The notes under the pieces were generated by a model. The model saw only the letters and a program-made list of their open reading frames with translations. It had not been told where the DNA came from and searched no databases. From positions 1 through 64,000 of the forward strand of contig CAWETU010000001.1 in assembly GCA_963812135.1 (NCBI GenBank): a DNA stretch of 64,000 nt, given 5' to 3'. The position numbers and the translations under genes are program-made. Source of the stretch: Vulcanimicrobiota bacterium. GTDB lineage: Bacteria > Vulcanimicrobiota > Vulcanimicrobiia > Eremiobacterales > Eremiobacteraceae. This document shows positions 5,587 to 57,319 of the stretch, piece by piece. How positions within the stretch are numbered: the stretch's first letter is position 1; every line of letters begins with the position of its first letter.

Positions 5587-6987
5587 TCAGTCGACCGGAG
5601 CCATGGTAGCGGCCGAATCTATTCGGCCGTTTCCCGAAACGTTTTCATTCGATCGCACGACGTCGGCGATCGTCGTGCGCAATTTCTCGACGAGCTCGTC
5701 GATCTGCGCCCGCGAGATCGTCAACGGCGGCGCGATCATGACGAGATCGCCGTTGATGCCGTCGGCATGGCCGACGTTCGGCCACAGGACGAGACCGTTG
5801 TCGCGTGCGCGCGCGACGATCCGCTCGACGAACTTGCGCTCGCGCGCGAACGGACGCTTCGCGGCGCGGTCTTCGACGAATTCGACCGCCGCGAGCATGC
5901 CGATGCCGCGGACGTCGCCGACGACGGCGGCGATCGCATCGTCGTCGCGCAGGCCCTGCAGCGATGACTGGAGGTAGCTGCCGACGTCGTGCGCGCGTCT
6001 CACCAATCCCTCGCGCTCGATGTAGCGCAGCACCGCCAGCGCCGCGGCGCTGGACAGCGCGTGGTGCGAATAGGTCTGGGCGTGAACCAATCCGCCGAAC
6101 TTGCCGCGCGCCAGCGTGTCGACGAGCGAGCGCTTGGCGAGCATCGCCGAGAGCGGCGCGTATCCGCCGTTGAGCCCTTTGCCGAGCGTGATGATGTCCG
6201 GCACGATCGGCTTGCCCGCGGCGTCCTTGAAATGTTCGAGCGCGAAGAACTTGCCGGTGCGCCCGACGCCCGTCAAGACCTCATCTGCGATGAACAAGAC
6301 GCCGTGCCGGTCGCAGATCTCGCGAATGCGGGCGTAATAACCGGGAGGCGGCACCGAGGCGCCGGTCGACGAGCCGCCGATCGGCTCGGCGATGAATGCC
6401 GCGACGTTCTCAGATCCCGCTTCGAGGATCGCCGTCTCCAACGCGTCGCCGGTCAACGAGGGGTCGTCGCTGCTCGGCGCGCGATAGGGATACGGTGCGT
6501 CGATCATCAGCACGTCCACAAGCCAGGGAGAATAGACGGCGCGGTAGTGCGCGCGCGCCGACGCGGAAAGCGCGAGCAGCGTGTTGCCGTGATAGCCGGG
6601 CGTGCGCGCGATGACGATCTGCCGGTCCGGTTCGCCGCGCTCGACATGATACTGACGCGCAAGTTTCAGCGCGGCTTCGACGGCTTCGGAGCCGCTGCTC
6701 AGGAAATACGCGCGATCCACCTCGGCAGGCGCCACTGCCGCGAGCGCGTCCGCGAGCGCTTCGACCGGACGCGACGTGAACGCGGTGCCGTTCACGTACG
6801 CGATGGTTGCCGCTTGCGCGGCCATGGCATCGGCGATCTCGCGCACGCCGTGGCCGATGGACGCGACCATCGCGCCGCCGCTCGCGTCGAGATACTGCTT
6901 ACCGGCGTCGTCGTAGAGATAGACGCCCTCGCCGCGCGCGATGGTGGGCAGCGCGACGCCGAGCTTTCTATAGAAGACGTGGCTCAT
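5587..6987 (-). CDS. Class III PLP-dependent aminotransferase
   Basis: YLDASGG, SSGSEAVEAALKLARQY, YHGNT, FIADEVLTGVGRTG, PLP lysine in TLGKGLNGGY; ATG 6987 overlaps upstream gene end. Confidence 0.92.
   Translation of the reverse strand: MSHVFYRKLGVALPTIARGEGVYLYDDAGKQYLDASGGAMVASIGHGVREIADAMAAQAATIAYVNGTAFTSRPVEALADALAAVAPAEVDRAYFLSSGSEAVEAALKLARQYHVERGEPDRQIVIARTPGYHGNTLLALSASARAHYRAVYSPWLVDVLMIDAPYPYRAPSSDDPSLTGDALETAILEAGSENVAAFIAEPIGGSSTGASVPPPGYYARIREICDRHGVLFIADEVLTGVGRTGKFFALEHFKDAAGKPIVPDIITLGKGLNGGYAPLSAMLAKRSLVDTLARGKFGGLVHAQTYSHHALSSAAALAVLRYIEREGLVRRAHDVGSYLQSSLQGLRDDDAIAAVVGDVRGIGMLAAVEFVEDRAAKRPFARERKFVERIVARARDNGLVLWPNVGHADGINGDLVMIAPPLTISRAQIDELVEKLRTTIADVVRSNENVSGNGRIDSAATMAPVD
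5606..5630 (+). repeat. REP-like palindromic element copy 1
   Basis: GTAG C GGCCGAAT CT ATTCGGCC GT; inside the 3' end of the aminotransferase CDS. Confidence 0.75.
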
Positions 6988-8320
6988 CGAGCAGAACCGC
7001 TTCGTCAACGAGGGGGGCAGGCGCCTGCGGCGCGCTGCGCAGGGTCGCGACGATGTACGCGACGACGATGGGCAACAGCGCGAGATTGATAGCGCCGACG
7101 ATCATGATGAGCCGCGTGCCGGTCGTTCCGAGCGTCGCCATGAGTACGGCTTCGACCACGACCGCGCCGATGAGGACGCGGGTGCATCGATAGCTGCCTA
7201 CCGCCTGCAAGTACGCGATGCCGAGCGCGTCGATCGCCAGCAACGCCTCCGCGACGCCGTATTGCCGCAACAAATCGTGCGCCTGCACGAATGACGGCCC
7301 GAACGTGATGCTCAGCAGCGCCGAAGGCGCGAAGGTCGTGAATGTCACGCCCGCGAGCGCACCGACGACGCCCGCACCGAACGTGACTGCGAGCAGCCGC
7401 CCCAAGAGTTCGCGGCTGACGTGCAGCGCCGCCGCCGCCTTCGGCGCCATGACGAGCGCTATCATTCCGACGGCGAATGGAATCGTTCGTGCGATGATGC
7501 CGGCCGCGCCGTAAAGGCCAGCGTCGGTGCCGGAGAGATGATGCTTTGCGAAGAGCTGATCCATGAAGAGCAACAAGAGAACGCACACCGAGATCCACAA
7601 GAGTGAGAGCGCTCGGCCGCCGAGCTCGAGATGATCGTGTTCCGATCTCACGCTCGCGCCGGCGCGCGAGTAGACGAGCGGCGATGCGACCACTGCGAGC
7701 CCTGCGATCGAGCCGACCACAAAGCCGCCCATCGCGCCGAGCACCGCCATGCCGGCGGCGACCATCGCGAGCGCGGATGCGAGTTTGACGGCCATCTCGG
7801 TGATCATCGACGCAGCGAAGAGCCCGAACCGGTGCGCGCCTTGCGCCGCGCCCCGGAAAAACGCGCTGAAGATCGCGAACGCGAGATAGGCGGCGAACGC
7901 GAACCAGAGGGCAGGCTGCACGATGTGAAGGTAGGGACCGCCGAGCAACCCCGCGGCCAGCGCGATCGCAGCGATCGTCAGCGCCGCGCCCGCCGCAGCC
8001 GGAGCGACGGCGCGGACGAACGGCGCCACGCCGTCCACGCGCCGGAGCGCCCAGAGCTTTGCCGTGTCTTGCATCGCGACGATGCCTAGCGGTCCGCCGA
8101 AGACCCCAAAGATCGTGGCGGCCGCCGCAAGCGTGGCAAGCGTGCCGTATGCATCCGGACCGAGGCGCCGCGAGATCAAGAAATGGAAGAGATAGTTGAA
8201 CGCGTTGGCGAGGAGCGAGCCGCCGACGATGATCGCCGCATCGCCGCCGATGCGCCGCAGCGAAAAGCCGTGCGAGATATCGGGGCTCGCCGGGTCCGCG
8301 AGCTGCGCTCGCTCAGACAC
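6968..8320 (-). CDS. Wzx/MATE-like oligosaccharide flippase (MOP superfamily)
   Basis: Many hydrophobic segments; ANAFNYLFHFLISRRLGPDAYG; DQLFAKHHLS..DAGLYGAA; GTG 8320 overlaps larE stop. Confidence 0.8.
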   Translation of the reverse strand: MSERAQLADPASPDISHGFSLRRIGGDAAIIVGGSLLANAFNYLFHFLISRRLGPDAYGTLATLAAAATIFGVFGGPLGIVAMQDTAKLWALRRVDGVAPFVRAVAPAAAGAALTIAAIALAAGLLGGPYLHIVQPALWFAFAAYLAFAIFSAFFRGAAQGAHRFGLFAASMITEMAVKLASALAMVAAGMAVLGAMGGFVVGSIAGLAVVASPLVYSRAGASVRSEHDHLELGGRALSLLWISVCVLLLLFMDQLFAKHHLSGTDAGLYGAAGIIARTIPFAVGMIALVMAPKAAAALHVSRELLGRLLAVTFGAGVVGALAGVTFTTFAPSALLSITFGPSFVQAHDLLRQYGVAEALLAIDALGIAYLQAVGSYRCTRVLIGAVVVEAVLMATLGTTGTRLIMIVGAINLALLPIVVAYIVATLRSAPQAPAPLVDEAVLLDEPRLL

Positions 8321-9143
8321 CCGAGCTTCGCTCGGGTGCTGCAGCCGCCGATTCGTTGAGGCTGCCCGTCCGGTAGCCGCGCGGGTCGATCTCGACGCGC
8401 GCATAGCCGACATCGCCAAGCGCCGCCTCGACATTCGCTCTGCGCGCTTGCAGACGCGCGACGTCGCTCAGCGGCACTTCCACGCGGGCCAAGACGCCGA
8501 AGTGCCGCACTCGCACGGTTGGAAAACCGCTCGCGCGCAAGTAGCGCTCGGCGAGATCGATGCGCCGCAGATCGTCGTACTCGATGCGCGTGCCGTAAGG
8601 CACGCGTGACGAGAGGCACGGCGTCGCCGGCTTGCTCCACACCGCAAGTCCGAGCTCGTGCGCAAACGCGCGGACGTCGTCCTTGGTCATGCCGGCTTCC
8701 GCGAGCGGACTGCGCACGCCGCGCGCCAACGCGGCTCCTCGCCCGGGGCGCACGTCTAGCTGCGTCGTGCCATCATCCGCATTGAAGCCGTCGATGACGT
8801 GATCGAAGCTCCGCTCGCGCGCGAGCTGCGTCAATCGGCCGAACAGCTCATCTTTGCAGTAGAAGCAGCGGTTCGCGGGGTTGTCGCGATACGCCGGATT
8901 GTCGAACTCGCGCGTCTCGATCGTCTCGTGGCGAATGCCGATGCGTGCGGCCAGCTCGCGCGCGGCATCCAATTCGCCGCCGGCGACCGAGGCGGATACG
9001 CCGGTCACGGCGAGCGCGCGAGCGCCGAGCTCATCGTATGCGATCGCGGCCAGCAGCGCGCTGTCCACGCCGCCCGAGTATGCGACGATCGCGCTGCGCA
9101 AATCCCTGACGGATGCGCGCAGCAGGGAGCGCCTCGCGTTCAC
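8313..9143 (-). CDS. larE: ATP-dependent sulfur transferase LarE (nickel-pincer cofactor biosynthesis)
   Basis: PP-loop AYSGGVDS, NPANRCFYCK, RPGRGAA, SPLAEAG, PATPCLSSRVPYG, GYRTGSLN; GTGA overlap with larC. Confidence 0.92.
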   Translation of the reverse strand: MNARRSLLRASVRDLRSAIVAYSGGVDSALLAAIAYDELGARALAVTGVSASVAGGELDAARELAARIGIRHETIETREFDNPAYRDNPANRCFYCKDELFGRLTQLARERSFDHVIDGFNADDGTTQLDVRPGRGAALARGVRSPLAEAGMTKDDVRAFAHELGLAVWSKPATPCLSSRVPYGTRIEYDDLRRIDLAERYLRASGFPTVRVRHFGVLARVEVPLSDVARLQARRANVEAALGDVGYARVEIDPRGYRTGSLNESAAAAPERSSGV

Positions 9144-10385
9144 GCTTGCTGCTTGAGCCACTGGTCGATCTCGCTATCGATCGTGCGCATCGCATCGGCG
9201 AGCGCGAGGCCGCTGCGCGTCGCGATGGCACGGCAATCTTCGTACTCCGGGCGCGCTCGTTGGCCCGACTGCGTCGAGACGACCTTGACGCGCACCGGTC
9301 CAAGCGACGTCATCACGCTTTCGATCCGCCGCGGCAGCGTCACGCGCGTGACCGGCCAGCGGCGCACGCCGATGGTCGTCGTCTCCGCGAGCAGCGCGTC
9401 GGCGACCGCGTCGGAACGCTCCGCAGGCGCCAGCGCCGCGAGCAACGTCCCCGGTCTCCCCTTCTTCATCTGCGCCGCGTGCGTCCACACGTCGAGCGCG
9501 CCGGCAGCCACCAAACGCTCCGCGACGTGCTCGTACAATTGCGGATTCATATCATCGATGTTCGTCTCGATCTGCACGACGTCGCCGTGCGTCTCAGGCT
9601 GCGGTCCCGCGCTCTTGAGCGCGGGTTCCCCGATCGAGACGCGCAACACGTTGGCGAACGGAAAATCAGAGCGACCGGCACCATAGCCGATCCGTTCGAT
9701 CGTCAGCGGCGGGCGAAGCGCAAAACTCGCGAGCGTCGTCAGGATCGCGGCCCCGGTGGGCGTGACCATCTCAGAATCGAGATCGACAGCGTAGGTCGGC
9801 GCGCCGCGCAAGAGCTCCATTGTCGCGGGCGAGGGCGATGGCATCGCGCCGTGGGCGCCATGCACGGTGCCGCGGCCGCACGGCAGCGGCGAGCAATAGA
9901 CGGATTCGATGCCGAGCAAGTGCAGTCCAATGACCGCGCCGGCGATGTCGACGATCGCGTCCACCTGCCCGACCTCGTGGAACGCGATCTCGTCGACGGG
10001 TACCCTGTGTACGCGCGCTTCCGCCGCGGCGAGGCGCTCGTAGACTTTGATCGCACGGCTTTCGACCGCGGCGGGATATCGCGCCGCGCGGATGATCTCG
10101 AGCACGTCGGCAAGCGAGCGATGCGGATGCCCTTCATGATGATGCTCGTGTGTAGTGGTCGAATTTATTCGACCGTCCATGATCCTCACCAGGCACGTCG
10201 ACGTCGAGATACAACGCGCCGATGCCGCGCTTGTGCACGGGATCGGCGTGCAGCTTCCAACCGCGCACCGGCAGCCGGCGCAGTTCGCGCTCCAGCGCGT
10301 CAAGGCTCAAGCCCGCATCGACGAGCGCGCCGAGGATCATGTTGCCGCTCGCGCCGCCGAAGCAATCGAAGACGGCGACGCTCAT
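9140..10385 (-). CDS. larC: Nickel insertase LarC, frameshifted near 10150-10185
   Basis: N-terminal FDCFGGASGNMILGALVDAG in one frame; HEHHHEGHPHR, AEARVH, FHEVGQVDAIVD, TPTGAA, ETNIDDMNP, MKKGRPG, ETTTIGVR, PEYED in another; ATGA overlap with larB. Confidence 0.9.
10152..10176 (+). repeat. REP-like palindromic element copy 2
   Basis: GTAG T GGTCGAAT TT ATTCGACC GT; inside larC at the frameshift. Confidence 0.75.
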
Positions 10386-11146
10386 GGAAGGTTCCGGTCG
10401 TGCAGAGCGAGGTGATTGATACGCGACGCCACGCATGCCGCGCCGAAACCATTGTCGATGTTCACCACGCTCACGCCGCCGGCGCACGCGTTGAGCATCG
10501 TGAGCAGCGCGGCGAGGCCGCCGAACGACGCGCCGTAGCCGACGCTGGTCGGAACGGCGATCACCGGACGATCGGTCAAGCCGGCGATAACGCCGGGCAA
10601 GGCGCCATCCATACCCGCGACCGCGACGATCGCGTTAGCCGTGCGCAGCGCGCCGACATGGCCAAGCACGCGGTGCAATCCGGCGACGCCGACGTCGTCG
10701 ATCCGCGCGACCGCGTTGCCCATGATGTCCAGCGAACACGCCGCCTCGGCTGCGACCGGCCGGTCCGATGTGCCGGCGCTGACGACGCACACGAGTCCGG
10801 CGCGCTCGACAGGCGTCCGCTCGTAGACGATGGCGCGCGCGTCGGCGTCATAGCGCGCGTCTCGAACCTGTTCGTTGACCGCCGCGAACGCGTCGGGCGT
10901 TGCGCGCGTGGCCAAGAATCTGCCGCTCGAGGATGCAAGCCGGGCCGCGATGGCCGCGATCTCGTCAGGACGCTTGCCCGGACAGTAGATCACCTCGGGG
11001 AACCCAGTTCGCTGCGCGCGCAGATGGTCGAGCGTCACGTGCGGTATGTCGCTCGGTCCCGCGCCTTTCAGGTGCGCGAGCGCCTCGTCCACCGAAACGG
11101 ACCCGTCACGCAACGCATCGAGCAGTCCGCGCAGAGTGTCGTCCAT
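10382..11146 (-). CDS. larB: Nickel-pincer cofactor biosynthesis carboxylase/hydrolase LarB
   Basis: DHLRAQRTGFPEVIYCPGK, SAGTSDRPVAAEA, DVGVAGLHR, VAGMDGALP, AVPTSVGYG, VVNIDNGFGAA. Confidence 0.93.
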   Translation of the reverse strand: MDDTLRGLLDALRDGSVSVDEALAHLKGAGPSDIPHVTLDHLRAQRTGFPEVIYCPGKRPDEIAAIAARLASSSGRFLATRATPDAFAAVNEQVRDARYDADARAIVYERTPVERAGLVCVVSAGTSDRPVAAEAACSLDIMGNAVARIDDVGVAGLHRVLGHVGALRTANAIVAVAGMDGALPGVIAGLTDRPVIAVPTSVGYGASFGGLAALLTMLNACAGGVSVVNIDNGFGAACVASRINHLALHDRNLP

Positions 11147-11207
11147 CGCGCGTGGTTCTGTGGCGGAGCGCCGCCGCCCCGCCGAACACTCCGTCACGCG
11201 TTCTTGA

Positions 11208-12540: not shown

Positions 12541-12694
12541 CTCGTACCCCTCACGCCTAAGCGGGAAGCGGCGTTGGCGTGTGATACGGAGATGCCAAAC
12601 GCGCACCTTCTCACGGCGGGTGAGAAAATGCTTAGACAACCCTGAGCGGGGGAATTGGGCACCGTCTGCGCAGAACCACGAATGGGAGGTTCGC

Positions 12695-15509: not shown

Positions 15510-15552
15510 GCGCACAGGTCCCATCAGCGCCGATTCGAAAGTGGTCCCGTCC

Positions 15553-16639
15553 ATGAAGATCCTGGTCACCGGCGGAGCCGGCTATATCGGCGTCGTCCTG
15601 TGCGAGCGTCTGCTCGAGGCGGGCCACCAGGTGCGCGTGCTCGACCGGCTCTACTGGGGCCGCACGCCGCTGGCACATCTGCTCGATCGCATCGAGCTCG
15701 TGCACGAAGACGTGCGCGCGATCGACTCGCAAGTGCTCGATGGGATCGACGGCGTGGCGCATCTTGCCGGCCTCTCGAACGACCCGACAGCCGAATACAA
15801 CACGGCCGCCAATTGGGAGATGAACGCCGACGCGACCGCGCACTTGGCCAGTCGCGTGCAAGAAGCGCGGCATCGAGCGGTTCACGTTCGGGTCGAGCGC
15901 GTCCATCTACGACGGCCTTGGCGAGGGGTTGTTCGACGAGACGGCGCCGGTCAATCCGCGCGGCGCCTACTCGCTTTCGAAATTCGCGGCCGAAGAGTCG
16001 TTGCGCAGCATCGCCGGCGGAGGTTTCTCACCCGTCATCTTGCGGCAGGGTACGGTCTACGGTTTCAGCACGCGCATGCGGTTCGATCTTGTGGTGAACA
16101 CGTTCATTAAAGATGCCCTGTTGCGCGGCACGCTCTTCCTGCACGGCGGCGGATGGATGTGGCGGCCGTTGGTGGATGTCAAAGATGTCGCGCAAGCGCA
16201 CCTGCTTTGCCTCGAAGCCGGACCAAGCGTCGTCGGCGGCCAGACATTCAACGTCGTGCACGACAATTTCCAGATCCGCCAGCTCGCGATGCTCGTCGCG
16301 GGATCGCTCTCGCTACACGACAAGACCGTGCGGCTCGAAGACGCGCCGGTTCCCAAGATCAATCGCAACTACCGCTGCACGAACCGCAAGCTGACGGAGA
16401 CGCTCGGTTTCACGCCGCACGTGACGGTCCTCGAATCCATCGAAGGCATGCTGAAGCAGCTGCCGCTCGAAGATCCGGCGGAGCTCGCCCACCCGCGTTT
16501 TTACAATATCAAATGGATGACGCTGCTCGAAGAGATCGTCGCGACGCACGCCGGCGAGCGATCGATCTGGGACGTCGTGCCTACGGAGCTCGATAGATCA
16601 GACGGACGAGTCCCATCCAAAAACCTTCAGTCGCTCTGA
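15553..16639 (+). CDS. NAD-dependent nucleotide-sugar epimerase/dehydratase, frameshifted near 15850
   Basis: TGGAGYIG, HLAGLSNDP, then SSASIY, YSLSK (YxxxK), RMRFDLVVN, WRPLVDVKD in a second frame. Confidence 0.88.
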
Positions 16640-17030
16640 ACGCGACGATCGGCAAGAGCCACGGACCCTCCGGCACGAAGCCCTCTTCGCGGTCGATCAG
16701 GCCGATGATCCACGCATGTCGCACGGGCAGTCTCCGCGACCAGCGCGCGACTCGTTCTTCGTCATAACCGCGCAGGCGCAGCGCGACGAGCACCGCACCG
16801 TCATCTGGACTCTGGGCTACGACCTGCGCGAACTGACTCGTCGTCATTCCGATGCGGTGCAAGAACGCGATATCAATGGGCGAGTGCCCGAACAGATAAT
16901 TTCCGAGCTCGCCGCGCTGCTTCATGCGAGCTTTGTCGATCAGACGCGGCAGCCAGCGGATCCCGTCGAGCGTCTCGCTCCAACGCCGCGGCGTTGGAGC
17001 GGTCGAGTTTACTCGACCGTCCGCACTCAT
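16581..17030 (-). CDS. DUF5069-like small protein
   Basis: PRRWSETLDGIRWLPRLIDKAR..GELGNYLFGHSPID..FL resembles DUF5069; ATGA overlap with rmlD. Confidence 0.6.
   Translation of the reverse strand: MSADGRVNSTAPTPRRWSETLDGIRWLPRLIDKARMKQRGELGNYLFGHSPIDIAFLHRIGMTTSQFAQVVAQSPDDGAVLVALRLRGYDEERVARWSRRLPVRHAWIIGLIDREEGFVPEGPWLLPIVAFRATEGFWMGLVRLIYRAP
16996..17020 (+). repeat. REP-like palindromic element copy 3
   Basis: GGAG C GGTCGAGT TT ACTCGACC GT; within the first codons of the DUF5069-like CDS. Confidence 0.75.
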
Positions 17031-17893: not shown

Positions 17894-17912
17894 CGGACGT
17901 GATGCGCCGCGC

Positions 17913-19529: not shown

Positions 19530-19630
19530 CGCTGACCATTTCTCAGACTTGCCTGGACGCGCCTACCACGCGAGGGCCTGGGAACTCGCAGGGTGAAGCC
19601 GATGTGCCCTTGGGGTAGGAGTCGCCAGAG

Positions 19631-21399: not shown

Positions 21400-21421
21400 A
21401 GCTGGAACCGCGTCCGGTCGA

Positions 21422-38609: not shown

Positions 38610-38616
38610 ACGTCAC

Positions 38617-48842: not shown

Positions 48843-48845
48843 GCG

Positions 48846-49274: not shown

Positions 49275-49373
49275 CTAGTCTATTTGTTCCCGGGCGCGCG
49301 CCCGGGTATGCCCTCTTCTGAAGATAGGCCGGGTCGCGAGCGACCTGGCCACGCGCCGTTTCGGAGGTATTAG

Positions 49374-52300
49374 TTGGCGACGTCGCTTGGTCCCCTCATC
49401 GCGCGCATTGTGACGAACGCATCCGATGCGATCGCCCGCGCCGCCCAAGCGGTCGGCGCGCGTGCGGGCGTCGATGTGACCGAGACAACAGCGGCGGCAC
49501 GCCCGCCGGCAGTCGCAGCGTTGTGGCGCTCGCTTGGCGGCGTGCTCATCGTCTGGTGCGCGACGCCCGACAGCGCTGACCGGTTTGCCAACGATGCTTC
49601 CTTCTATCTCGACGATGCCGGCGACGTCGTGCGGGTGCTGCGTCCGCGCGACCGCGCAAATGCCGGCTTGTTCAATCCGACGGAGCGCAGCGCGCGGATC
49701 GAGACGCTCAGCGCGCTCGCCTCGGGCCAGCCAGGCATTTATTGCTTGCCGCATGCGAGCATGCGCCAGCCGCTGCCATCGCCGCAGCGCTTGCGCGATC
49801 TTTCGTTTGAGTTGCGCGCCGGACAGGACTACGCATGGGAGGATCTGCTCGCACGCCTCGTCGCGCTCGGATACGATCGCGTCGAGATCGTGAGCGCGGT
49901 CGGCGAGTTCACCGTGCGCGGCGGTTTGATCGACCTGTTCCCAGCGACCGCCGATCGTCCGATCCGCCTCGAGTTCTTCGGCGACACGTTGGAGAGCATC
50001 CGCGAGTTCTCGTTGTCGGATCAACGCTCGATCGATTCCATCGATGCATCGCTCGTCGCGCCTTGGAATGAAGACGTGCTGGCCAACGACGGCGCCTTCG
50101 TCGGCGACTACGCACCGTCAGCGCCAGTGGTCGTGGACGACGCCGAAATGATCGTCGCGATCGATCACGGCCTGGCCACCGAACACGACGACGGAACCAT
50201 CGCCGCGGCGGACGATGACGGCTCCACCACTGCGACCACGTCTACACGGGGAACGGCGGGGAACAGCGGGATAGTTTCCCTCCCCGCCTCGGCTCCGGCG
50301 GCTCTCGCCGCCTCCGACGTCCCCGCTCCTGACGCGGTCGCAGTGGTGGAGCCGACACCGTTCAGCCTTGGCGACATCTCGAAGCGTCTCGATGAGCGCC
50401 CGTTCGTGAACTTCGCGACTTCAGCTCCGCGTATCGCTCGTGCCGCAGACTTGACGATGGCCCTGCCGTCAGTCCCAGCACCGATCTTCAATCGCAGCAT
50501 GGAACGCTTCGTCAGCGATGTGCGTGCGCGCGTCGCGGCGGGCGAGCTGGTCGCGATCGCATCGGTCGGTCATCGCCGCATCCGCGAGGTGCTCGACGAA
50601 CACGATGTCGCCGTCTCTCCGCCGCCCAAAACGTGGAAGCGCGGCGACGGCGGCCGTGTCGTCGTGGCTGAAGGCGCGATCGATGCGGGCTTTGAGTTCA
50701 CGCAAGCCGGCATCGTCGTGCTGGGCGACGCGGAGCTGTTCGGACACCCGGCACGCCGTCAGAAGATCAGAGCCGTTAAAGAAGGCGTGCCCATCACCGA
50801 AGCCGATCTCAAAGTCGGCGAGTACTTCGTGCACGCCAACCACGGCATCGGGCAATATCTCGGACTCGAGCACATCGTCGTCAACGACGTCGGGCGCGAC
50901 TTCATGGCGCTCAAGTACGCCGGCGCGGATCGCCTCTACGTGCCGGTCGAGATGATGCATCTCGTGCGCCGCTACGTCGCCGGCGACGGCGCGCCGCCCG
51001 CCCTTTCGAAGATGGGCGGCAGCGATTGGGCCCGCGCGCGATCGCGCGTGCGCGAAGCGGTCGAGAAAATCGCCGAGGGTCTCGTGCGGCTGTACGCGGA
51101 GCGCGAGGCCGCACAAGGTCATTCGTTCGCGCCGGACTCGCCGTGGCAGGCCGAACTCGAAGAGTCTTTCCCCTACGATGAGACGCCGGATCAGCGCGCG
51201 GCGATCGAGGCGGTGAAGCACGACATGGAGCGCCCGCGCCCGATGGATCGGCTCGTGTGCGGCGACGTCGGCTACGGCAAGACCGAAGTCGCGATCCGCG
51301 CCGCGTTCAAGGCGATCATGGACCGCAAGCAAGTCGCGGTGCTCGTGCCGACGACCGTGCTCGCCGCGCAGCACTACCGCACGTTCACCGAGCGCTTTGC
51401 GGCGTTTCCCGTCAAGGTCGGCGTGCTGTCGCGGCTGCGTTCCAAGGCAGAACAGAAAGAGACGCTCGCGCAGCTGGCCGATGGCAGCGTCGATCTGGTG
51501 ATCGGCACGCATCGCCTCTTGCAGCGCGACGTCGGCTTCAAGAACCTCGGCCTCGTCATCGTCGATGAAGAACAGCGCTTCGGCGTCGCCCATAAGGAAC
51601 GGCTCAAAGAGCTGCGCCGTTCGGTCGACGTGTTGACGCTCTCAGCCACGCCGATCCCCCGCACGCTGCACATGTCGCTCGTCGGCGTGCGCGATCTGTC
51701 ACTGATCCAAACGGCACCTATCAACCGCATGGCGGTCAAGACGATCGTGACGTCGACGAGCGACGCGCTCATCGCTTCGGCGTTGCACCAAGAACTCGAT
51801 CGCGGCGGCCAGGTGTATTTCGTCCACAATCGCATCGAATCGATCTATGGCATCCGCGACGCGCTCCAGGCGCTTGCGCCGCGCGCGCGCATCGCCGTCG
51901 GGCACGGTCAGATGAACGAGCACGAGCTTGAAGACGTCATGGTCGGTTTCGTGAACGGCGACTTCGACGTGCTCGTTTCGACCACCATCATCGAGAACGG
52001 GCTCGATATCCCGAACGTCAACACGATCGTCATCAACAACGCCGAGCACTTCGGGCTCGCGCAGTTGTATCAGCTGCGCGGCCGCGTCGGGCGAAGCTCG
52101 CACCAGGCCTACGCCTACTTCCTCTATCAACCGCACCGCGCGTTGTCCGAGACGGCGCAGGCGCGCTTGGAGGCGATCCGCGAGTTCTCGCATCTGGGTT
52201 CGGGACTGCGACTGGCGATGCGCGACCTCGAGATCCGCGGCGCCGGCAACCTGCTCGGGCACGCGCAATCGGGCTTCATCGCGGCGGTCGGGTTCGACGC

Positions 52301-52799
52301 CTACTGCCAGATCCTGGAGGACGCGATCAACGAGTTGCGCGGCCAGCCGCACGCGCCGGACGAGCCGCCGCCGGTGTTGGACCTACGGGTCAGCGCGTAC
52401 ATCCCGAACGACTACGTGCGCGGCGCCAGCCAGAAGATCGGGCTGTATCAGCGGATCGCCGCGGCGCGCACGCTCGAGGCGCTCGCGGGCATCGCCGACG
52501 AGATGCGCGACCGCTACGGCCCGCGCCCCAAAGAAGTCGAAGCGCTCATCGAGCTTGCCCGCCTGCGTTTACTCGCAGCGGGGAAAGGAGTCGAAAAACT
52601 AGCGCTCGAAGGCCGACGATTGACGCTCGAAGTCGGGCGCCGTTTTTCGCTCTCCGAAAGTTCACTTCCGGCTCTGACGTCTCTCACTCGAGGAAACTTC
52701 CGTTTCACTCAGGGCGCGATTGTGGCTCAGCTTCCGCCGCACGACACCGCCGGCGACGGCAAGCTTGCGACTGTACGCGAGATCCTAGCGGCATTGTAA
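49374..52799 (+). CDS. mfd: Transcription-repair coupling factor
   Basis: RBS GGAGG 49363; UvrB-like RGGLIDLFP, VHANHGIG, MDRLVCGDVGYGKTEVA, VDEEQRFGV, LSATPIPRTL, QLRGRVGR, DLEIRGAGNLLG. Confidence 0.96.
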   Translation: MATSLGPLIARIVTNASDAIARAAQAVGARAGVDVTETTAAARPPAVAALWRSLGGVLIVWCATPDSADRFANDASFYLDDAGDVVRVLRPRDRANAGLFNPTERSARIETLSALASGQPGIYCLPHASMRQPLPSPQRLRDLSFELRAGQDYAWEDLLARLVALGYDRVEIVSAVGEFTVRGGLIDLFPATADRPIRLEFFGDTLESIREFSLSDQRSIDSIDASLVAPWNEDVLANDGAFVGDYAPSAPVVVDDAEMIVAIDHGLATEHDDGTIAAADDDGSTTATTSTRGTAGNSGIVSLPASAPAALAASDVPAPDAVAVVEPTPFSLGDISKRLDERPFVNFATSAPRIARAADLTMALPSVPAPIFNRSMERFVSDVRARVAAGELVAIASVGHRRIREVLDEHDVAVSPPPKTWKRGDGGRVVVAEGAIDAGFEFTQAGIVVLGDAELFGHPARRQKIRAVKEGVPITEADLKVGEYFVHANHGIGQYLGLEHIVVNDVGRDFMALKYAGADRLYVPVEMMHLVRRYVAGDGAPPALSKMGGSDWARARSRVREAVEKIAEGLVRLYAEREAAQGHSFAPDSPWQAELEESFPYDETPDQRAAIEAVKHDMERPRPMDRLVCGDVGYGKTEVAIRAAFKAIMDRKQVAVLVPTTVLAAQHYRTFTERFAAFPVKVGVLSRLRSKAEQKETLAQLADGSVDLVIGTHRLLQRDVGFKNLGLVIVDEEQRFGVAHKERLKELRRSVDVLTLSATPIPRTLHMSLVGVRDLSLIQTAPINRMAVKTIVTSTSDALIASALHQELDRGGQVYFVHNRIESIYGIRDALQALAPRARIAVGHGQMNEHELEDVMVGFVNGDFDVLVSTTIIENGLDIPNVNTIVINNAEHFGLAQLYQLRGRVGRSSHQAYAYFLYQPHRALSETAQARLEAIREFSHLGSGLRLAMRDLEIRGAGNLLGHAQSGFIAAVGFDAYCQILEDAINELRGQPHAPDEPPPVLDLRVSAYIPNDYVRGASQKIGLYQRIAAARTLEALAGIADEMRDRYGPRPKEVEALIELARLRLLAAGKGVEKLALEGRRLTLEVGRRFSLSESSLPALTSLTRGNFRFTQGAIVAQLPPHDTAGDGKLATVREILAAL
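50219..50354. repeat. 136-bp palindromic/MITE-like element in frame within mfd
   Basis: Arms 50219-50242 cggctccaccactgcgaccacgtc and 50331-50354 gacgcggtcgcagtggtggagccg are reverse complements at 23/24 positions; nested internal hairpins. Confidence 0.75.
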
Positions 52800-52810
52800 T
52801 TGGAGGAAGA

Positions 52811-53743
52811 ATGAATTCCAGGTTCGCGACGTTCGCATCGCTCTCGCTCGCCGCATGCGCGGTGCTGCTGATGACGGGATGCGGCGACCAGAAGGCCATC
52901 GCGACGGTCAACGGCCAGAAGATCACCAAGGGCGAGTTCGACGCAAAGCTCGAGCAGCAGGGCGGCAAGGCCGCGCTGCAGTCGATGGTGACCCAAGACC
53001 TCGTGTTCCAATACGCCAAAGATCACAACATCACGGTCAGCGACCAGGAAGTGACCGACAAGCTCAACGAGATCCAGCAGCACTTCCCGCCCGGCCAGTT
53101 CGAGTCGATGCTCAAATCGCAGGGCATCACGATGGACGACGCGCGCAAGCTCGTGCGTGAGAACCTGCTGACGACCAAGGCCGTCGATCAGAACATCAAC
53201 GTGACCGACGCACAAGTCAACGCGTATCTCCAGCAGCAGCACCTGGTCATCGGCCAGCCGTCGCAAGTGCGCGCGCGCCACATCTTGGTCAAGACCAAGG
53301 CGGAAGCCGACAATGTCGAAGCGCAGCTGAAAAAGGGCGGCGATTTCGCGGCGCTCGCGAAGCAGTACTCGCAAGACCCGGGGACCAAGGACAAGGGCGG
53401 TGAGCTCGGCTGGTTCGGACCCGGCCAGATGGTGCCTGCGTTCCAGAACGCGGCATTTGCCATGAAGCCCGGTCAGATCAGCGCGCCGGTCCAGACACCG
53501 TTCGGTTGGCACGTCATCCAGGTCGAAGAGACCAAGCCGCTGACCAAAGACGCTGCGGTGACGCAGATCAAGAAGCAGCAAGAGCAGCTGCAGATCACTC
53601 CGTTCATGACGCAGTTGCGGACGAGCGCGAAGATCGAGATCGAGGATCCGCGGTATCAGGATCTCTTCCCGAGTCCGCCTCCGACGGCACCGGTCGCTCC
53701 GGCGCCGGCCCCGGCAAGCCCAGCTCCGACACCGAAGAAGTAA
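52811..53743 (+). CDS. prsA: PrsA-like parvulin peptidyl-prolyl isomerase lipoprotein
   Basis: RBS GGAGG; lipobox MTGC; VRARHILV, DFAALAKQYSQD, GGELGWF, MVPAF, PVQTPFGWHVI. Confidence 0.9.
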   Translation: MNSRFATFASLSLAACAVLLMTGCGDQKAIATVNGQKITKGEFDAKLEQQGGKAALQSMVTQDLVFQYAKDHNITVSDQEVTDKLNEIQQHFPPGQFESMLKSQGITMDDARKLVRENLLTTKAVDQNINVTDAQVNAYLQQQHLVIGQPSQVRARHILVKTKAEADNVEAQLKKGGDFAALAKQYSQDPGTKDKGGELGWFGPGQMVPAFQNAAFAMKPGQISAPVQTPFGWHVIQVEETKPLTKDAAVTQIKKQQEQLQITPFMTQLRTSAKIEIEDPRYQDLFPSPPPTAPVAPAPAPASPAPTPKK

Positions 53744-53755
53744 CAGACCCGAGAC

Positions 53756-53791
53756 AAAGAAGAGCGCGGATTTCCGCGCTTTTCTTTTTTT
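53756..53791 (+). terminator. Rho-independent terminator after prsA
   Basis: Stem gcgcgga-tt-tccgcgc followed by ttttcttttttt and preceded by an A-rich tract. Confidence 0.85.
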
Positions 53792-53829
53792 GGAGGCGCT
53801 CGCCCACGCCTCGCGTAACTTTTGGTTCC

Positions 53830-55023
53830 ATGCCCACGCTTGCCATCGTCGGCCTCGGGCCGAGCGATAGCTCACTCCTTACACTCGGCGCGCTCGAACG
53901 TCTCCGAAAGGCTCCACGAACCGCGGTCTGCGCCGTTCCCGCATCCGTCTCCGACTACTTGCGTTCGAAGAACGTCAATGTCGTGCCGACGACGTTCGAG
54001 GGCGCTGCGTTGCTGCGCGGCGTCCCCGAAGCGATCCGTGCTGTCGTCGAATTCGCGCGCGCGGGCGACGCAGCGCTCGGCGTTCCCGGCCATCCGATGC
54101 TCGATTTCCCTGGCCTGCCGCATCTGCTGCGCGCATTGGAAGCCGCGAAGATCGACGTCGAACTCGTGCCCGGCGTGCCGCGCGCCTCATTGCAGGCCGC
54201 CACCGCGGCGCCGCTCGTGCCGTTGCCGCCAATCGCCGCGAGTCATTCGTGGGAAGAGCTCGTCGAGATCATGACGCGCTTGCGCGCATGCTGTCCGTGG
54301 GATCGCGAGCAGACGCATCAGACGTTGCTGCCCTACCTCATCGAAGAGGCGCACGAAGTCGTCGAAGCCGTCGACGAAGCCGACCCGAAGAAGCTATGCG
54401 GCGAGCTCGGCGACCTGCTCCTTCAAATCGTGTTCCATTCGCAGATCGCCGCCGAGAAAGGCCAGTTCAGCGTGGCCGACGTGATCAACGCACTGGCGGA
54501 GAAGATGATCCGCCGTCATCCGCACGTGTTCGGCGACGCGAGCATCTCGACGTCGCAAGAGCAGATGAAGTCCTGGGAGCTCATCAAGACCAAGGAAGCC
54601 GGCCACACGCATCGCGAGTCGCTGCTCGACGGCATCCCGAAGAGCTTGCCCTCGCTGCTCGGCGCGCAGCGCCTGCAAGAGAAAGCCGCGACCGTCAATT
54701 TCGACTGGCCCAAGACAGAGGGCGTGGTCGAGAAAGTCGACGAGGAGTTGGACGAGCTGCGCACGGCGGTCGACAGCGGCGAGCACGCGCACATCCGTGA
54801 GGAACTCGGCGACGTCTTCTTCACCCTGGTGAATCTCGCGCGCCGGCTCGGCGTGGACGCCGAAGCGGCGCTGCGCTCGGCGAACGTCAAGTTCCGCGAG
54901 CGCTTCGCATCCATGGAGCGCATGGCCGGCGGGGGCGCCACCGCGCTCGCCGGTCGCAGCCTCGAAGACCTCGACGTGTTGTGGAAGCGCGCGAAGGATC
55001 ATGAGACTGGACAAGTTTCTTAA
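53830..55023 (+). CDS. mazG: MazG nucleoside triphosphate pyrophosphohydrolase with YabN-like N-terminal methylase-type domain
   Basis: IVGLGP N-terminus; CPWDREQTH, LIEEAHE, ELGDLLLQIVFH, KMIRRHPHVFG, FDW, EELGDVFF. Confidence 0.92.
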   Translation: MPTLAIVGLGPSDSSLLTLGALERLRKAPRTAVCAVPASVSDYLRSKNVNVVPTTFEGAALLRGVPEAIRAVVEFARAGDAALGVPGHPMLDFPGLPHLLRALEAAKIDVELVPGVPRASLQAATAAPLVPLPPIAASHSWEELVEIMTRLRACCPWDREQTHQTLLPYLIEEAHEVVEAVDEADPKKLCGELGDLLLQIVFHSQIAAEKGQFSVADVINALAEKMIRRHPHVFGDASISTSQEQMKSWELIKTKEAGHTHRESLLDGIPKSLPSLLGAQRLQEKAATVNFDWPKTEGVVEKVDEELDELRTAVDSGEHAHIREELGDVFFTLVNLARRLGVDAEAALRSANVKFRERFASMERMAGGGATALAGRSLEDLDVLWKRAKDHETGQVS

Positions 55024-55261
55024 AGTCTCGCGCTTGGCCAAACGGCGCACCGACGCCAAAGAAGCGCTCGACGCAGGACGCATCGAGCTCGGCGGGCGGG
55101 CGGTAAAGCCTGCGCACTCGGTGAAGGTAGGCGATGAGCTGCTCATCCACTATGCGTCGCGTGACGTGCGGGTACGCATCCTGGCCCTGCCCGAGCGGCC
55201 GGGCGCCCGCGTGAAACCAGAATCCTTGTACACGGTGCTCGAAGAGCGCAAGACGGCCTAG
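55001..55261 (+). CDS. S4-domain RNA-binding protein (YabO/RqcP/Hsp15 family)
   Basis: MRLDKFLKVSRLAKRRT.AKE...GRI....VKP...VKVGD; position after mazG as in Firmicutes. Confidence 0.88.
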   Translation: MRLDKFLKVSRLAKRRTDAKEALDAGRIELGGRAVKPAHSVKVGDELLIHYASRDVRVRILALPERPGARVKPESLYTVLEERKTA

Positions 55262-55268
55262 GGGAACT

Positions 55269-56429
55269 TTGCGAATCGATCCGCTCACGATCGGCATGTT
55301 CGCCGATTCGTTCACGCCTGAGATCAACGGCGTCGTCACGTCGCTCGTCAGCTCGACGCGCGAGCTGCGTCGGCGTGGCCACCGCGTCATCATCATCGCA
55401 CCGTCGCACGAAGGCGCGGTCGACGATGATCCCGATGTCTTCCGGCTGCGCTCGTCGCCCTTCCCCTTCTATCCGCAGTTCCGCATGGCGTTCCCGCTGC
55501 CCGCCAAACTGCTGGCAACGCTGCCGCGCATGCCGTTCGACGTCATCCATGCGCATTCGATGTTCTTCATCGGCTGCTTGGGCGCGTATTTGGCGCAGTT
55601 CCGCAGGATGCCGTTGCTGTTCACCTACCACACGCTGTGGACCGAATACGCCCACTACGTGCCAGTCGATCCCGGCTTCACACGCTCGCAAGTCGTCTGG
55701 GTCTCGCGCGAGTTCTGCAACCGAGCCACCCGCGTTATCGCGCCGACCGAGGGCATCCGCGATCTGCTCGCCTCGTACGGCGTCGAGCGGCCGGCCGTCG
55801 TGCTGCCCAGCGGCGTCGACATCTCGGTCTTCGACTCCAGCGTCGCGCAAGCGCCGCGCATCCGCGCGGGCGGCGGACCGATCGCGCTGTTCGTCGGGCG
55901 GCTCGGCAAAGAGAAAAACGTCGATCTCGTGCTCGACGCCTTCGACGTCGCCGCGCGGCGCATCCAAGACCTGCGGCTGTTCATCGTGGGATCCGGACCG
56001 CACGAAGAAGCGCTGCGCCACCATGCGAATAGATTGCCTTCGTCGCCGCGCATCCGCTTCACCGGCGCGCTCGATCAGCACGAGCTGGGCGCGTATTACG
56101 CCGCGGCTGATGTGTTCGTGTTCGCGTCGACGACCGAGACGCAAGGTCTCGTGCTGCTCGAAGCGATGACGCACGGCGTGCCGGTGGCGACCGTCGATTG
56201 CGCGGTGACGCGCGAAGTCGTGACCGGCGAGTCCGGCATCCTGACGCGAGAGACGCCGCAAGATCTCGGCGATGCGATCGCGGCCCTCGTGCGCGCGGGT
56301 GAGGACGAACGGCGGCAGCGCATCATGGCCGCGAAGAACGTCGCGCGGCCCTATTCGCTTGAGGCGCTCACCGACAAGCTCGAAGCGCAGTACGCACAAG
56401 TGCGCGCGCAGGCGTCAGCGGCGCTCTAG
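55269..56429 (+). CDS. GT4 glycosyltransferase (diacylglycerol glucosyltransferase-like)
   Basis: IGMFADSFTPEINGVVTS, HAHS, FTYHT, FVGRLGKEKN, FASTTETQGLVLLEAM. Confidence 0.88.
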   Translation: MRIDPLTIGMFADSFTPEINGVVTSLVSSTRELRRRGHRVIIIAPSHEGAVDDDPDVFRLRSSPFPFYPQFRMAFPLPAKLLATLPRMPFDVIHAHSMFFIGCLGAYLAQFRRMPLLFTYHTLWTEYAHYVPVDPGFTRSQVVWVSREFCNRATRVIAPTEGIRDLLASYGVERPAVVLPSGVDISVFDSSVAQAPRIRAGGGPIALFVGRLGKEKNVDLVLDAFDVAARRIQDLRLFIVGSGPHEEALRHHANRLPSSPRIRFTGALDQHELGAYYAAADVFVFASTTETQGLVLLEAMTHGVPVATVDCAVTREVVTGESGILTRETPQDLGDAIAALVRAGEDERRQRIMAAKNVARPYSLEALTDKLEAQYAQVRAQASAAL

Positions 56430-56439
56430 ATCTTCCGAC

Positions 56440-57273
56440 GTGTTCTCGACGGATGCCAAAGACGAGATCGCCGCGGTCGCGTTCGAGCGTCCGTGCTGCC
56501 CCGCGAACTTCATCCGCGCGCTCGCCGCGTTCTCGGGCGGCGGGCGTTCGCGCATCGTCTCCACCGATCGCGCCGCCGTCGTTCGCGCGGCTCTGCGAGC
56601 CGCGAAGCTCGCCGGCATTCCGCTCGAGACAACCGCACCGGCGAGCGGACGTCTCCGGCGCGGCTCCATACGTGTAGCCAGCCACGGGTCGGTGCCCGTC
56701 ACGGGAAAGCTCCCCGCGCGCACGTGTTGCCGGCGCGCGTGGCTGCGCGCCGCGTTCCTCGCGTGCGGATCGGTGTCCGATCCGCACAAGGGGTATCATC
56801 TGGAGTTCGTCTGCCCTGACGACGATCGCGCTCGCAGCCTGACGCAAGGTCTCGCGGCGCTCGGCATCGATGCGGGCGTTTCGCGCCGGCGGCGGCGACC
56901 GGTCGTGTACGTCAAAGGAGCGCCGGCGGTCGTGGAACTGCTCGGCCAGATGGGCGCGACGCGCGCGATGCTGGCCCTCGACGATCTGCTTGCGGTGCGT
57001 TACACGAAAAACGTCACGCGCCGGCGCGTCAACAGCGAAGCGGCGAATGCGGCGCGCGCCGCAGCGACCAGCGTGCGGCAACGCGCGGCGGCGTTGCGCA
57101 TGATGCGCGGATCGCGCGTGCGGCGCTTGAGCGCGGCGCTGCGCGAAGCGGCGCATCTGCGCATCGCGCACCCCGACTACACGCTGGCCGAGCTCGCGGC
57201 GCGCGCCAAGCCGCCGGTGAGCAAAGCCGCCATGGCGTACCGGCTTCGCCAGATCGAGCGATTAGCGTCGTAG
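56440..57273 (+). CDS. whiA: DNA-binding protein WhiA
   Basis: [70 protein letters not shown]. Confidence 0.9.
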
Positions 57274-57294
57274 CTGCGCACGGAACGGCACGCG

Positions 57295-57319
57295 ACCGTC
57301 GAATGGATTCGACCGCTCC
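57295..57319 (-). repeat. REP-like palindromic element copy 4 (intergenic, whiA-gap)
   Basis: Minus strand reads GGAG C GGTCGAAT CC ATTCGACG GT. Confidence 0.7.

What the first reader, a model, noticed from the sequence alone, without database searches (positions are those of the whole stretch)
5606..57319. REP-like palindrome family that sits inside proteins in a shared reading frame
Seen: four 25-bp copies with consensus G[TG]AG-Y-GGYCGART-NN-AYTCGRC[CG]-GT at 5606, 10152, 16996 (+) and 57295-57319 (-). The stems covary (GGCCGAAT/ATTCGGCC, GGTCGAAT/ATTCGACC, GGTCGAGT/ACTCGACC). All four have the same orientation relative to local transcription. Three are in CDSs and give a common peptide: NGRIDSAAT (aminotransferase C-tail), DGRINSTTT (LarC His-loop, frame ambiguous because of the frameshift) and DGRVNSTAP (DUF5069 N-tail). 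The intergenic copy is also in frame with gap (DRRMDSTAP). Established: GTAG/GGAG tetranucleotide plus hairpin is the signature of REPs associated with RAYT/TnpA-REP HUH nucleases, which are normally extragenic, and Rickettsia palindromic elements are the precedent for coding insertions. Inference: a lineage-specific miniature element that adds peptide to tolerant protein termini and loops.
Basis: partly seen in the sequence, partly recalled or inferred. Interest (0 to 1): 0.8.

Follow-up and report, generated by a model that had tools for sequence, protein, structure and literature searches.

The report
Hairpin repeat family inserted inside genes
A 24-base hairpin repeat of the known REP type occurs about 200 times in this small soil-bacterium genome, and nearly a third of the copies lie in frame inside ordinary housekeeping genes, an uncommon but already described behaviour.

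Summary
All four window copies exist (4 hits against 0.47 expected). They belong to a family of about 200 copies, (a)T-G[T/G]AGC-GGTCGAAT-NN-ATTCGACC-G, in this 2.79 Mb genome.

Of 197 well-tagged copies, 96 are intergenic, 40 overlap a gene end and 61 lie wholly inside called CDSs. In 28 of the 40 overlapping copies, the TAG of the tag is the stop codon. The host genes include ValRS, CysRS, SelB, PurL, FabH, NuoC, PBP1A and LarC. Of 37 clearly internal copies, 24 use the single frame xGRI(N/D)ST(A/T)(T/P).

It is a genuine RAYT-type REP family. In a sister genus, Y1-transposase genes are flanked by inverted repeats with the same tag and outer stem. This genome and two element-rich congeners have no Y1 transposase. 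A fourth congener has one, but it is flanked by a different REP.

At orthologous sites the stems are conserved with compensatory changes, while the loop drifts at about the synonymous rate. The tag has shifted from GGAG to GTAG in this genome at many shared sites.

Intragenic GTAG REPs are already in print (Di Nocera 2013). This is therefore a new member of a known kind. The LarC frameshift is probably an assembly error or a strain variant.

The parts
5606..5629 (+). REP copy GTAGC-GGCCGAAT-CT-ATTCGGCC-G, antisense inside the class-III aminotransferase ORF (5587..7008, minus strand). It encodes NGRIDSAAT at residues 460-468 of 473, after the Pfam domain ends at residue 446.
   Evidence: The orthologous site is filled in G005 and G006 with the compensatory GGTC/GACC stem, and carries no element in G002 and G003.
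10152..10175 (+). REP copy GTAGT-GGTCGAAT-TT-ATTCGACC-G, antisense inside LarC (Ni_insertion family; ORFs 9140..10303 and 10134..10487, minus strand). It encodes DGRINSTTT just before the His-rich stretch.
   Evidence: The site is filled in G001, G005 and G006, and in frame in G005 and G006 (my reading of the alignment). G003 shows no element. The window's one-base frame break at 10177-10180 is absent from independent soil contigs.
16996..17019 (+). REP copy GGAGC-GGTCGAGT-TT-ACTCGACC-G, antisense in the first codons of the DUF5069 ORF (16581..17030, minus strand, with an ATGA overlap with the upstream RmlD-like gene). It encodes DGRVNSTAP.
   Evidence: The site is empty in G001, G005 and G006. 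The G005 N-terminus reads MSSRPRRW against MSADGRVNSTAPTPRRW here, a gain of 9 residues.
57296..57319 (-). REP copy GGAGC-GGTCGAAT-CC-ATTCGACG-G with one stem mismatch. It is intergenic, 23 nt after the stop of ORF 56272..57273 and about 42 nt before the likely TTG start of gap.
   Evidence: Its hairpin is weak (z = -0.97 as DNA, -0.83 as RNA).

Best explanation
This is a REP (repetitive extragenic palindrome) family of the GTAG-tagged, RAYT-associated class. The unit is 24 nt: a 5-nt tag G[T/G]AGC followed by a 9-bp stem with a 2-4 nt AT-rich loop. Inference: it was spread as single-stranded hairpin DNA by a Y1 HUH transposase (RAYT) in the ancestor of a sub-clade of this genus of Candidatus Eremiobacterota. 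The transposase gene is no longer present in this assembly. Most copies sit just downstream of genes, and the tag often supplies the TAG stop codon. The unit is 8 codons long and four of its six frames are open, so copies landing in linkers, loops and termini of proteins do not destroy the gene and persist. Selection then enriches the frame that gives the small hydrophilic peptide GRI(N/D)ST(A/T)(T/P). Shown: family anatomy, copy number, distribution, in-frame insertion relative to element-free orthologues, kinship to repeats that flank RAYT genes, and conservation of the stem. Inferred: the transposition mechanism, the loss of the RAYT gene, and the claim that the peptides are translated and tolerated.
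For: Anatomy and copy number.

Distribution, using my own gene calls (2666 genes, 89% coding): of 197 tagged copies, 96 are intergenic although only 10.7% of the genome is. They are depleted between divergent genes (7 of 95 against 20.9% of intergenic bases). In tandem spacers they lie closer to the upstream stop (median 17 nt against 48.5 nt). In 28 of the 40 copies that overlap a gene end, the TAG of the tag is the stop codon.

Intragenic copies: 61 of 197, of which 51 are in high-scoring genes and 37 lie at least 60 nt from both gene ends. By Pfam the hosts are housekeeping genes, and most of these copies fall between domains. The peptide aligns to gaps in Thermus ValRS and Nqo5 and is missing from orthologues in G002 and G003.

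Lineage: 125-165 copies in 3 of 6 congeners, 0-1 in the other three, and 0-2 in 34 other genomes of the family and class at up to 1 mismatch.

RAYT link: Y1_Tnp genes of G018 and G009 (sister genus) and of metagenome contigs L327, L329 and L331 are flanked by inverted copies of G[GT]AGCGGTCG...CGACCG(C). This superfamily pattern has 436, 283 and 213 copies in the three genomes of that genus, all of which have a RAYT gene.

Turnover in several lineages: three G000-specific copies have empty sites in 1 to 5 relatives. Of 75 copies in the relatives' loci, 14 have empty sites in G000.
Against: No PF01797 match, even at E <= 10, in G000 (98.4% complete, 6 contigs), G005 or G006. tblastn with seven RAYT proteins gives only noise. 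No transposase lies between inverted copies in G000.

The one RAYT in the genus (G001) is flanked by a different REP, which has 152 copies in that genome only.

Close pairs are head-to-tail in 14 of 16 cases, not the inverted REPIN dimers thought to be the mobile unit elsewhere.

No fixed insertion length or target duplication could be read from empty sites; the gaps were 24-34 nt.

Stems at orthologous sites are far better conserved than synonymous sites, which a dead relic would not show.

Gene calls are my own crude ones. No protein or RNA evidence shows that the inserted codons are translated.
Confidence: 0.8

Rival explanations
1. The hairpins are kept by selection for a host function, not as relics of a transposon. 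The function could be a binding site on DNA for a host protein, or an RNA hairpin that protects 3' ends, terminates transcription or pauses ribosomes at domain borders. This may hold in addition to a REP origin.
For: In 30 orthologous pair comparisons, stem positions are 92% identical (442 of 480). The two loop bases differ in 24 of 60 cases, and flanking third codon positions are 64.5% identical. Of 25 changed stem pairs, 11 are compensatory doubles and 5 keep a G-T pair. The element is an island: 77% identity against 47% in the 40 nt on either side. The tag changed in concert: GTAGC 103 and GGAGC 9 copies here, against 40/101, 45/100 and 16/97 in G005, G006 and G001. This includes shared sites, where G005 has GGAG at 8 of 9. 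No RAYT is present to explain fresh copies. Of 96 intergenic copies, 11 are followed by a T run, like terminators.
Against: The copies sit in unrelated genes and in four frames, with no common position relative to promoters or starts. Three congeners do without the family. Orientation flips at shared sites (ValRS in G005; PBP1A and site 1562907 in G001), and copy number varies at one spot (PurL linker; the intergenic space at 1841690). Both suggest turnover or replacement rather than static conserved sites. Pairs of relatives are not independent. Only 11 of 96 intergenic copies look like terminators.
Confidence: 0.3
2. The palindrome is the operator of a transcription factor or another promoter element.
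For: It is a perfect dyad with an AT-rich centre. The copy upstream of gap lies next to a TATATT box.
Against: Only 7 of 95 intergenic copies lie between divergent genes. Sixty-one copies are inside CDSs and 28 supply stop codons. About 200 copies with an asymmetric tag do not fit an operator.
Confidence: 0.02
3. The repeated unit is a selected peptide module (GRINSTAT) and the DNA palindrome is incidental.
For: Twenty-four of 37 internal copies use one frame.
Against: Half the copies are intergenic. Three other frames give unrelated peptides (VAVEFIRP, RSNKFDRY, SGRIYST). Third codon positions inside the stem are conserved while flanking ones are not. ValRS carries the element in opposite orientation in G005, which gives a different peptide at the same site.
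Confidence: 0.03

Closest known systems
GTAG-tagged REP families with RAYT genes (REPtrons), as catalogued by Di Nocera, De Gregorio and Rocco 2013 (PMC3733652; abstract and passages read)
   Same: A terminal GTAG-type tag next to a 6-9 bp stem. Hundreds of dispersed copies. Sub-families with compensatory stems. A preference for positions downstream of ORFs. The tag supplies TAG stop codons. Some species lack the transposase gene. Related repeats flank Y1 transposase genes in inverted orientation.
   Different: [quoted passage not shown] The host is an uncultivated phylum. GGAG is the majority tag in three of the four species. The copies are mostly singletons or head-to-tail pairs. No cognate RAYT exists in any of the four element-rich genomes.
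Intragenic GTAG REPs of Opitutus terrae and other species (same paper, Additional file 3; 70 occurrences of 'terrae' in that file)
   Same: Single 7-9 residue inserts in helicases, tRNA synthetases, UvrD and similar proteins, at variable positions and often at the termini. The authors interpret them as neutral inserts in loops and linkers.
   Different: Here one family in a 2.8 Mb genome gives 61 intragenic copies (31% of the family). It shows a strong preference for a single frame and conservation across species. I did not count what fraction of O. terrae REPs is intragenic.
Rickettsia palindromic elements (RPE). That they insert in frame in ORFs is taken from a passage of PMC3733652; their lengths are recalled.
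   Same: Palindromic repeats inserted in frame into genes that stay functional.
   Different: RPE-1 is much longer (about 100-150 bp, recalled). According to that paper RPE-4 and RPE-6 belong to the CGTC-tagged class, not the GTAG class. There is no sequence similarity.
REPIN/RAYT populations of Pseudomonas and E. coli (Bertels and co-workers; PMC5581495 and PMC8049555 seen in a search listing only)
   Same: Long persistence of repeat populations that are vertically inherited with the genome.
   Different: REPINs are inverted dimers that depend on a single-copy RAYT gene. Here the copies are monomers and no RAYT gene is present.

Membership tests
GTAG-type REP (RAYT-associated) | A terminal GTAG or degenerate tag directly beside a short perfect palindrome (stem 6-9 bp) | tested here: met
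   columns -5 to -1 read G, T/G, A, G, C in 185-206 of 220 copies. The 9-bp stem runs C-GGTCGAAT...ATTCGACC-G. Searches give the GTAGC and GGAGC counts.
GTAG-type REP (RAYT-associated) | High copy number, dispersed over the genome, lineage-specific | tested here: met
   about 200 copies on all large contigs; 4 of 7 genomes of the genus carry the family.
GTAG-type REP (RAYT-associated) | Mainly extragenic, downstream of ORFs, rare between divergent genes | tested here: met
   49% of copies lie in the 10.7% of the genome that is intergenic. Divergent spacers hold 7 of 95 intergenic copies. The median distance to the upstream stop is 17 nt. Even so, 31% of copies are intragenic.
GTAG-type REP (RAYT-associated) | A cognate Y1 (RAYT) transposase gene flanked by inverted copies of the repeat in the same genome | tested here: not met
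   none in G000, and none in G005 or G006. The RAYT in G001 carries another REP. The feature is met in the sister genus and in metagenome contigs for repeats with the same tag and outer stem.
GTAG-type REP (RAYT-associated) | Sub-families that differ by compensatory stem changes | tested here: met
   paralogous copies; 11 compensatory doubles at orthologous sites.
REPIN (inverted REP doublet as the mobile unit) | Most copies paired in inverted orientation at a fixed short distance | tested here: not met
   of 16 close pairs, 14 are head-to-tail and 2 are inverted. Most copies are single.
Rickettsia palindromic elements | In-frame insertion in ORFs that remain intact | tested here: met
   The sequence class and length of RPEs are not shared, so this is a likeness in behaviour and not membership.
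Intrinsic terminators | A G+C-rich hairpin followed by a T run at the 3' end of a transcription unit | tested here: not met
   only 11 of 96 intergenic copies have a T run. Examples are (sites 1832772 and 1846878).
Transcription-factor operator | Sites concentrated in promoter regions | tested here: not met

The most novel reading that the evidence does not exclude
The copies are actively kept alike in genomes that have no Y1 transposase. Some other trans-acting reader of tag plus stem would then do the work, such as a host protein, a repair or gene-conversion pathway, or an unrecognised nuclease. It would replace or correct copies in place, including those inside essential genes. This would explain three findings: the genome-wide GGAG-to-GTAG switch at shared sites, the compensatory stem changes with a freely drifting loop, and the orientation flips. 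REP maintenance would then be separable from RAYT.
Probability: 0.2. Interest if true: 0.7.

Novelty: new member of a known kind. Interest (0 to 1): 0.42.

Why it matters
This extends RAYT-type REPs, and their habit of decorating proteins, to Candidatus Eremiobacterota, a phylum known only from metagenomes.

It also offers a clean natural comparison. Sister species exist with and without the family, and sister genera with and without the transposase. That comparison can address an old question: are REPs maintained by their transposase, by the host, or not at all?

On the practical side, annotators of these genomes should expect 8-9 residue inserts, spurious N-terminal extensions and tag-derived stop codons at about 100 genes. 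Single-base frame breaks next to the hairpin should be treated with suspicion.

Tried and rejected
Programmed frameshift, split gene or translational bypass at the LarC copy was rejected. A near-identical soil contig (run X1) lacks one base at 10180, and contigs of X2 and X3 lack one at 10177. By my own reading of the window sequence, the X1 deletion restores one frame (GEDLDGRINSTTTHEHHHE). G005 and G006 are in frame.

A replication-linked orientation was tested. dnaA lies at 0.307 Mb, and gene-strand and GC3 skew switch near 0.3 and 1.6 Mb. The copies are 11 plus and 96 minus from 1.0 to 2.37 Mb, and 23 plus and 16 minus from 0.3 to 1.0 Mb. The bias is strong but does not follow the replichores, and it remains unexplained.

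A search for a transposase between inverted copies found only MreB, an SPFH protein, a sigma factor and a SpoU methylase. A weak tblastn hit at C1:2214378 lies in an amine-oxidase-like ORF, identified by my reading of its FAD-binding motif.

Rfam gave no family in the window. The earlier-findings look-up returned nothing.

The sequencing-run data showed no empty alleles at the three window sites. The RNA run X20 did not show a contig across any copy among the rows listed; this is no evidence either way.

Exact insertion borders and target duplications could not be read at 75-80% nucleotide identity between species.
Full report
**Observation.** The degenerate core gives 4 hits in the window against 0.47 expected by chance, and none of 100 shuffles reach 4.

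The window is the start of contig C1 of a 2.79 Mb genome with 64% G+C, in 6 contigs and 98.4% complete. Across the genome the core occurs 130 times exactly, 183 times with one mismatch and 220 times with two.

I oriented the 220 copies by their asymmetric flank. This gives a sharply bounded unit, (a)T-G[T/G]AGC-GGTCGAAT-NN-ATTCGACC-G, with no conservation outside it. Two stem pairs vary in a compensatory way: pair 6/11 is A-T 159 and G-C 41, and pair 2/15 is T-A 182 and C-G 17. As single strands, three of the four window copies fold clearly better than shuffles (z -3.0 to -4.5). The fourth, which has a stem mismatch, does not.

**Where the copies lie.** No gene finder was available, so I wrote a dicodon-based caller (2666 genes, 89% coding). 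All coding statistics below rest on it. I kept the 197 copies whose tag matches in at least 4 of 5 positions.
- 96 are intergenic, although only 10.7% of the genome is.
- 40 overlap a gene end.
- 61 lie wholly inside a called CDS.

Intergenic copies avoid divergent spacers (7 of 95 against 20.9% of intergenic bases). In tandem spacers they lie nearer the upstream stop (median 17 nt against 48.5 nt). In 28 of the 40 overlapping copies, the TAG of the tag is the gene's stop codon. Only 11 of the 96 intergenic copies are followed by a T run. Close pairs are mostly head-to-tail (14 of 16), with spacings of 26-46 nt.

**Copies inside genes.**
- Of the 61 intragenic copies, 51 are in high-scoring genes and 37 are at least 60 nt from both gene ends.
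- By Pfam the hosts are ordinary housekeeping proteins: ValRS, CysRS, SelB (two copies), PurL (three), FabH, the E2 acyltransferase, NuoC, PBP1A, an acyl-CoA synthetase, a UvrD-like helicase, aspartokinase, a rubrerythrin-VIT1 fusion (two), LarC and the class-III aminotransferase.
- Most copies fall between Pfam domains or at termini. A few fall inside a domain envelope (PBP1A, NuoC, the acyl-CoA synthetase, PMT, LarC).
- The encoded residues align to gaps in Thermus thermophilus ValRS and Nqo5.

Four of the six frames of the consensus are open, and all four are used: 30, 13, 8 and 6 copies (chi-square p = 1.5e-5). Among the 37 internal copies, 24 use the frame xGRI(N/D)ST(A/T)(T/P). The hydrophobic frame VAVEFIRP is found mostly at gene ends, where the coding status is doubtful.

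**Relatives.** With up to one mismatch, the tagged pattern has 163 copies here. In the same genus it has 125, 158 and 165 copies in G001, G005 and G006, but 1, 1 and 0 in G002, G003 and G004 (G004 is 72% complete). It has 0-2 copies in 34 further genomes of the family and class.

All came from records titled as a Candidatus Eremiobacteraeota MAG, which is my only basis for the phylum name.

**Orthologous sites.** Synteny within the genus is good, at 70-82% nucleotide identity. I examined 30 G000 copies.

| Genome | Filled | Empty | Other sequence |
|---|---|---|---|
| G005 | 8 | 3 | 3 |
| G006 | 9 | 1 | 4 |
| G001 | 4 | 4 | 6 |
| G002 | 2 | 2 | 12 |
| G003 | 0 | 2 | 11 |

The remaining sites could not be aligned on both flanks. 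The window copies behave as follows.
- The aminotransferase copy is shared with G005 and G006.
- The LarC copy is shared with G001, G005 and G006.
- The DUF5069 copy is private to G000. It adds nine residues to an N-terminus that reads MSSRPRRW in G005.

Two further private copies were seen, at 1840308 (empty in five genomes) and at 2151520. In the reverse direction, 75 copies in the relatives' fetched loci gave 31 filled, 14 empty, 15 other and 15 unmatched sites in G000. Gain or loss has therefore continued in several lineages.

Some shared sites carry the element in opposite orientation: ValRS in G005, and PBP1A and site 1562907 in G001. Others differ in copy number (the PurL linker; the spacer at 1841690).

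**Conservation.** These figures come from 30 orthologous pair comparisons; the pairs are not independent.
- The 18-nt core is 88.5% identical (478 of 540) and its stem positions 92% (442 of 480).
- The two loop bases differ in 24 of 60 cases.
- In the flanking coding sequence, third codon positions are 64.5% identical and first plus second positions 90.5%.
- Of 240 stem pairs, 215 are unchanged. Eleven changed on both sides and still pair, 5 changed on one side to a G-T pair, 7 are broken in one genome and 2 changed otherwise.
- The 40 nt on either side of the element are only 47% identical.

The tag has also moved in concert. With the rest of the pattern exact, GTAGC and GGAGC copies number 103 and 9 here, but 40 and 101 in G005, 45 and 100 in G006, and 16 and 97 in G001. 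Where G000 has GTAG, G005 has GGAG at 8 of 9 shared sites and G006 at 7 of 10. A decaying relic would not behave like this. The pattern points either to selection on the hairpin or to replacement or conversion of copies in place.

**The transposase question.** The Pfam Y1_Tnp model finds nothing in G000, G005 or G006, even at E <= 10. tblastn with seven RAYT proteins of the family finds only noise. The genes lying between inverted copies are housekeeping genes.

G001 has one Y1_Tnp gene, but it is flanked by a different GTAG repeat, which has 152 copies in that genome alone.

The link comes from outside the genus. The Y1_Tnp genes of G018 and G009 (sister genus, same family) are each flanked on both sides by inverted copies of G[GT]AGCGGTCGAG...CTCGACCGC. 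The same holds for metagenome contigs L327, L329 and L331, found with a profile of these transposases; L331 carries one GGAGC and one GTAGC copy. These repeats share the tag and the outer stem with the element studied here. The common pattern GKAGCGGTCGAR-N4-6-YTCGACCG has 436, 283 and 213 copies in the three genomes of the sister genus, all with a RAYT gene. It has 114-144 copies in the four RAYT-less genomes of this genus.

The element is therefore a true member of a RAYT-associated REP superfamily that has been orphaned in this genus, unless the gene lies in unassembled sequence.

**LarC.** In the window the LarC frame breaks at the element by one extra base, and G001 shows the same. G005 and G006 are in frame. 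Soil contigs from three independent runs, one of them near-identical, lack one base at 10177 or 10180. By my reading, the near-identical contig's deletion at 10180 restores one open frame through the element. The break is best read as an assembly error or a strain variant, not as recoding.

**Comparison with what is known.** Di Nocera and co-workers (PMC3733652; abstract, passages and supplementary hits read) already describe each of the following:
- GTAG- and CGTC-tagged REP superfamilies;
- sub-families with compensatory stems;
- tags that supply TAG stops;
- species without REPtrons;
- REPs inside genes, most numerous in Opitutus terrae and Rickettsia conorii, including tRNA synthetases and UvrD.

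They read these as neutral inserts in loops and linkers. The sequence found here appears neither in that paper's supplements nor anywhere in the searchable library, and Rfam has nothing in the window.

**Verdict.** The finding is a new family of a known kind in a little-known phylum. It has an unusually high intragenic share (31%), a marked frame preference, and evidence of maintenance without a transposase gene. Two things remain unexplained: the strand asymmetry along the chromosome and the concerted tag switch.

Noticed in passing
window 8319-8337, and 19 further places in the genome: A second GTAG-tagged repeat family, GTAG[G/A]-ACCCGAGC-NNN-GCTCGGGT, usually followed by a second CGAGC...GCTCG hairpin. 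It has 20 exact copies in G000, some inside called CDSs (first seen). This genome therefore holds two REP families and no RAYT gene.
   Followed up: partly
window 10177-10180: There is a one-base excess next to the LarC copy that breaks the frame. Independent soil contigs lack one base here. G001 shows a break of the same phase at the same element. Single-base errors next to these hairpins may be systematic in such assemblies.
   Followed up: partly
G000 contig C1, whole length: There is a strong strand asymmetry of the element: 11 plus and 96 minus between 1.0 and 2.37 Mb. It does not follow the replichores inferred from dnaA (0.307 Mb), gene strand and GC3 skew. G005 shows the mirror bias, 124 forward and 34 reverse. 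Copy density is also uneven, at about 60 copies between 1.8 and 2.3 Mb.
   Followed up: partly
L057 (G001:C3:117700-122000), 1849-2482: A complete REPtron: a Y1 transposase ORF with an HIH motif, flanked by two plus two inverted copies of TGTAGGGGCCGATCTTTAGATCGGCCC. That repeat has 152 copies in G001 and essentially none in its congeners.
   Followed up: yes
window 16973-16996: The tag of the DUF5069 copy and the host sequence beside it form a perfect 12+12 nt palindrome, GCTCCAACGCCG/CGGCGTTGGAGC, which is absent from the empty sites of G005 and G006. This could be chance, or a trace of how the copy arose.
   Followed up: no
G000 C1:1843511-1844704 and C1:1697624-1698817: A 1.2 kb stretch is present twice at 98% identity, and is 90-93% identical to second loci in relatives. 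Its size and its position beside tRNA genes suggest a duplicated tuf gene. I did not check this.
   Followed up: no
G000 C1:2.2-2.37 Mb: GC3 skew, corrected for gene strand, rises to +0.07 to +0.11 here, unlike the rest of that replichore. This may be foreign DNA, an inversion or a misjoin.
   Followed up: no
G000 contigs C3 and C4 against C1:1944446 and C1:1947269: The small contigs repeat stretches of C1, with identical flanks around copies of both repeat families. This looks like strain heterogeneity or uncollapsed duplicates in the assembly.
   Followed up: no
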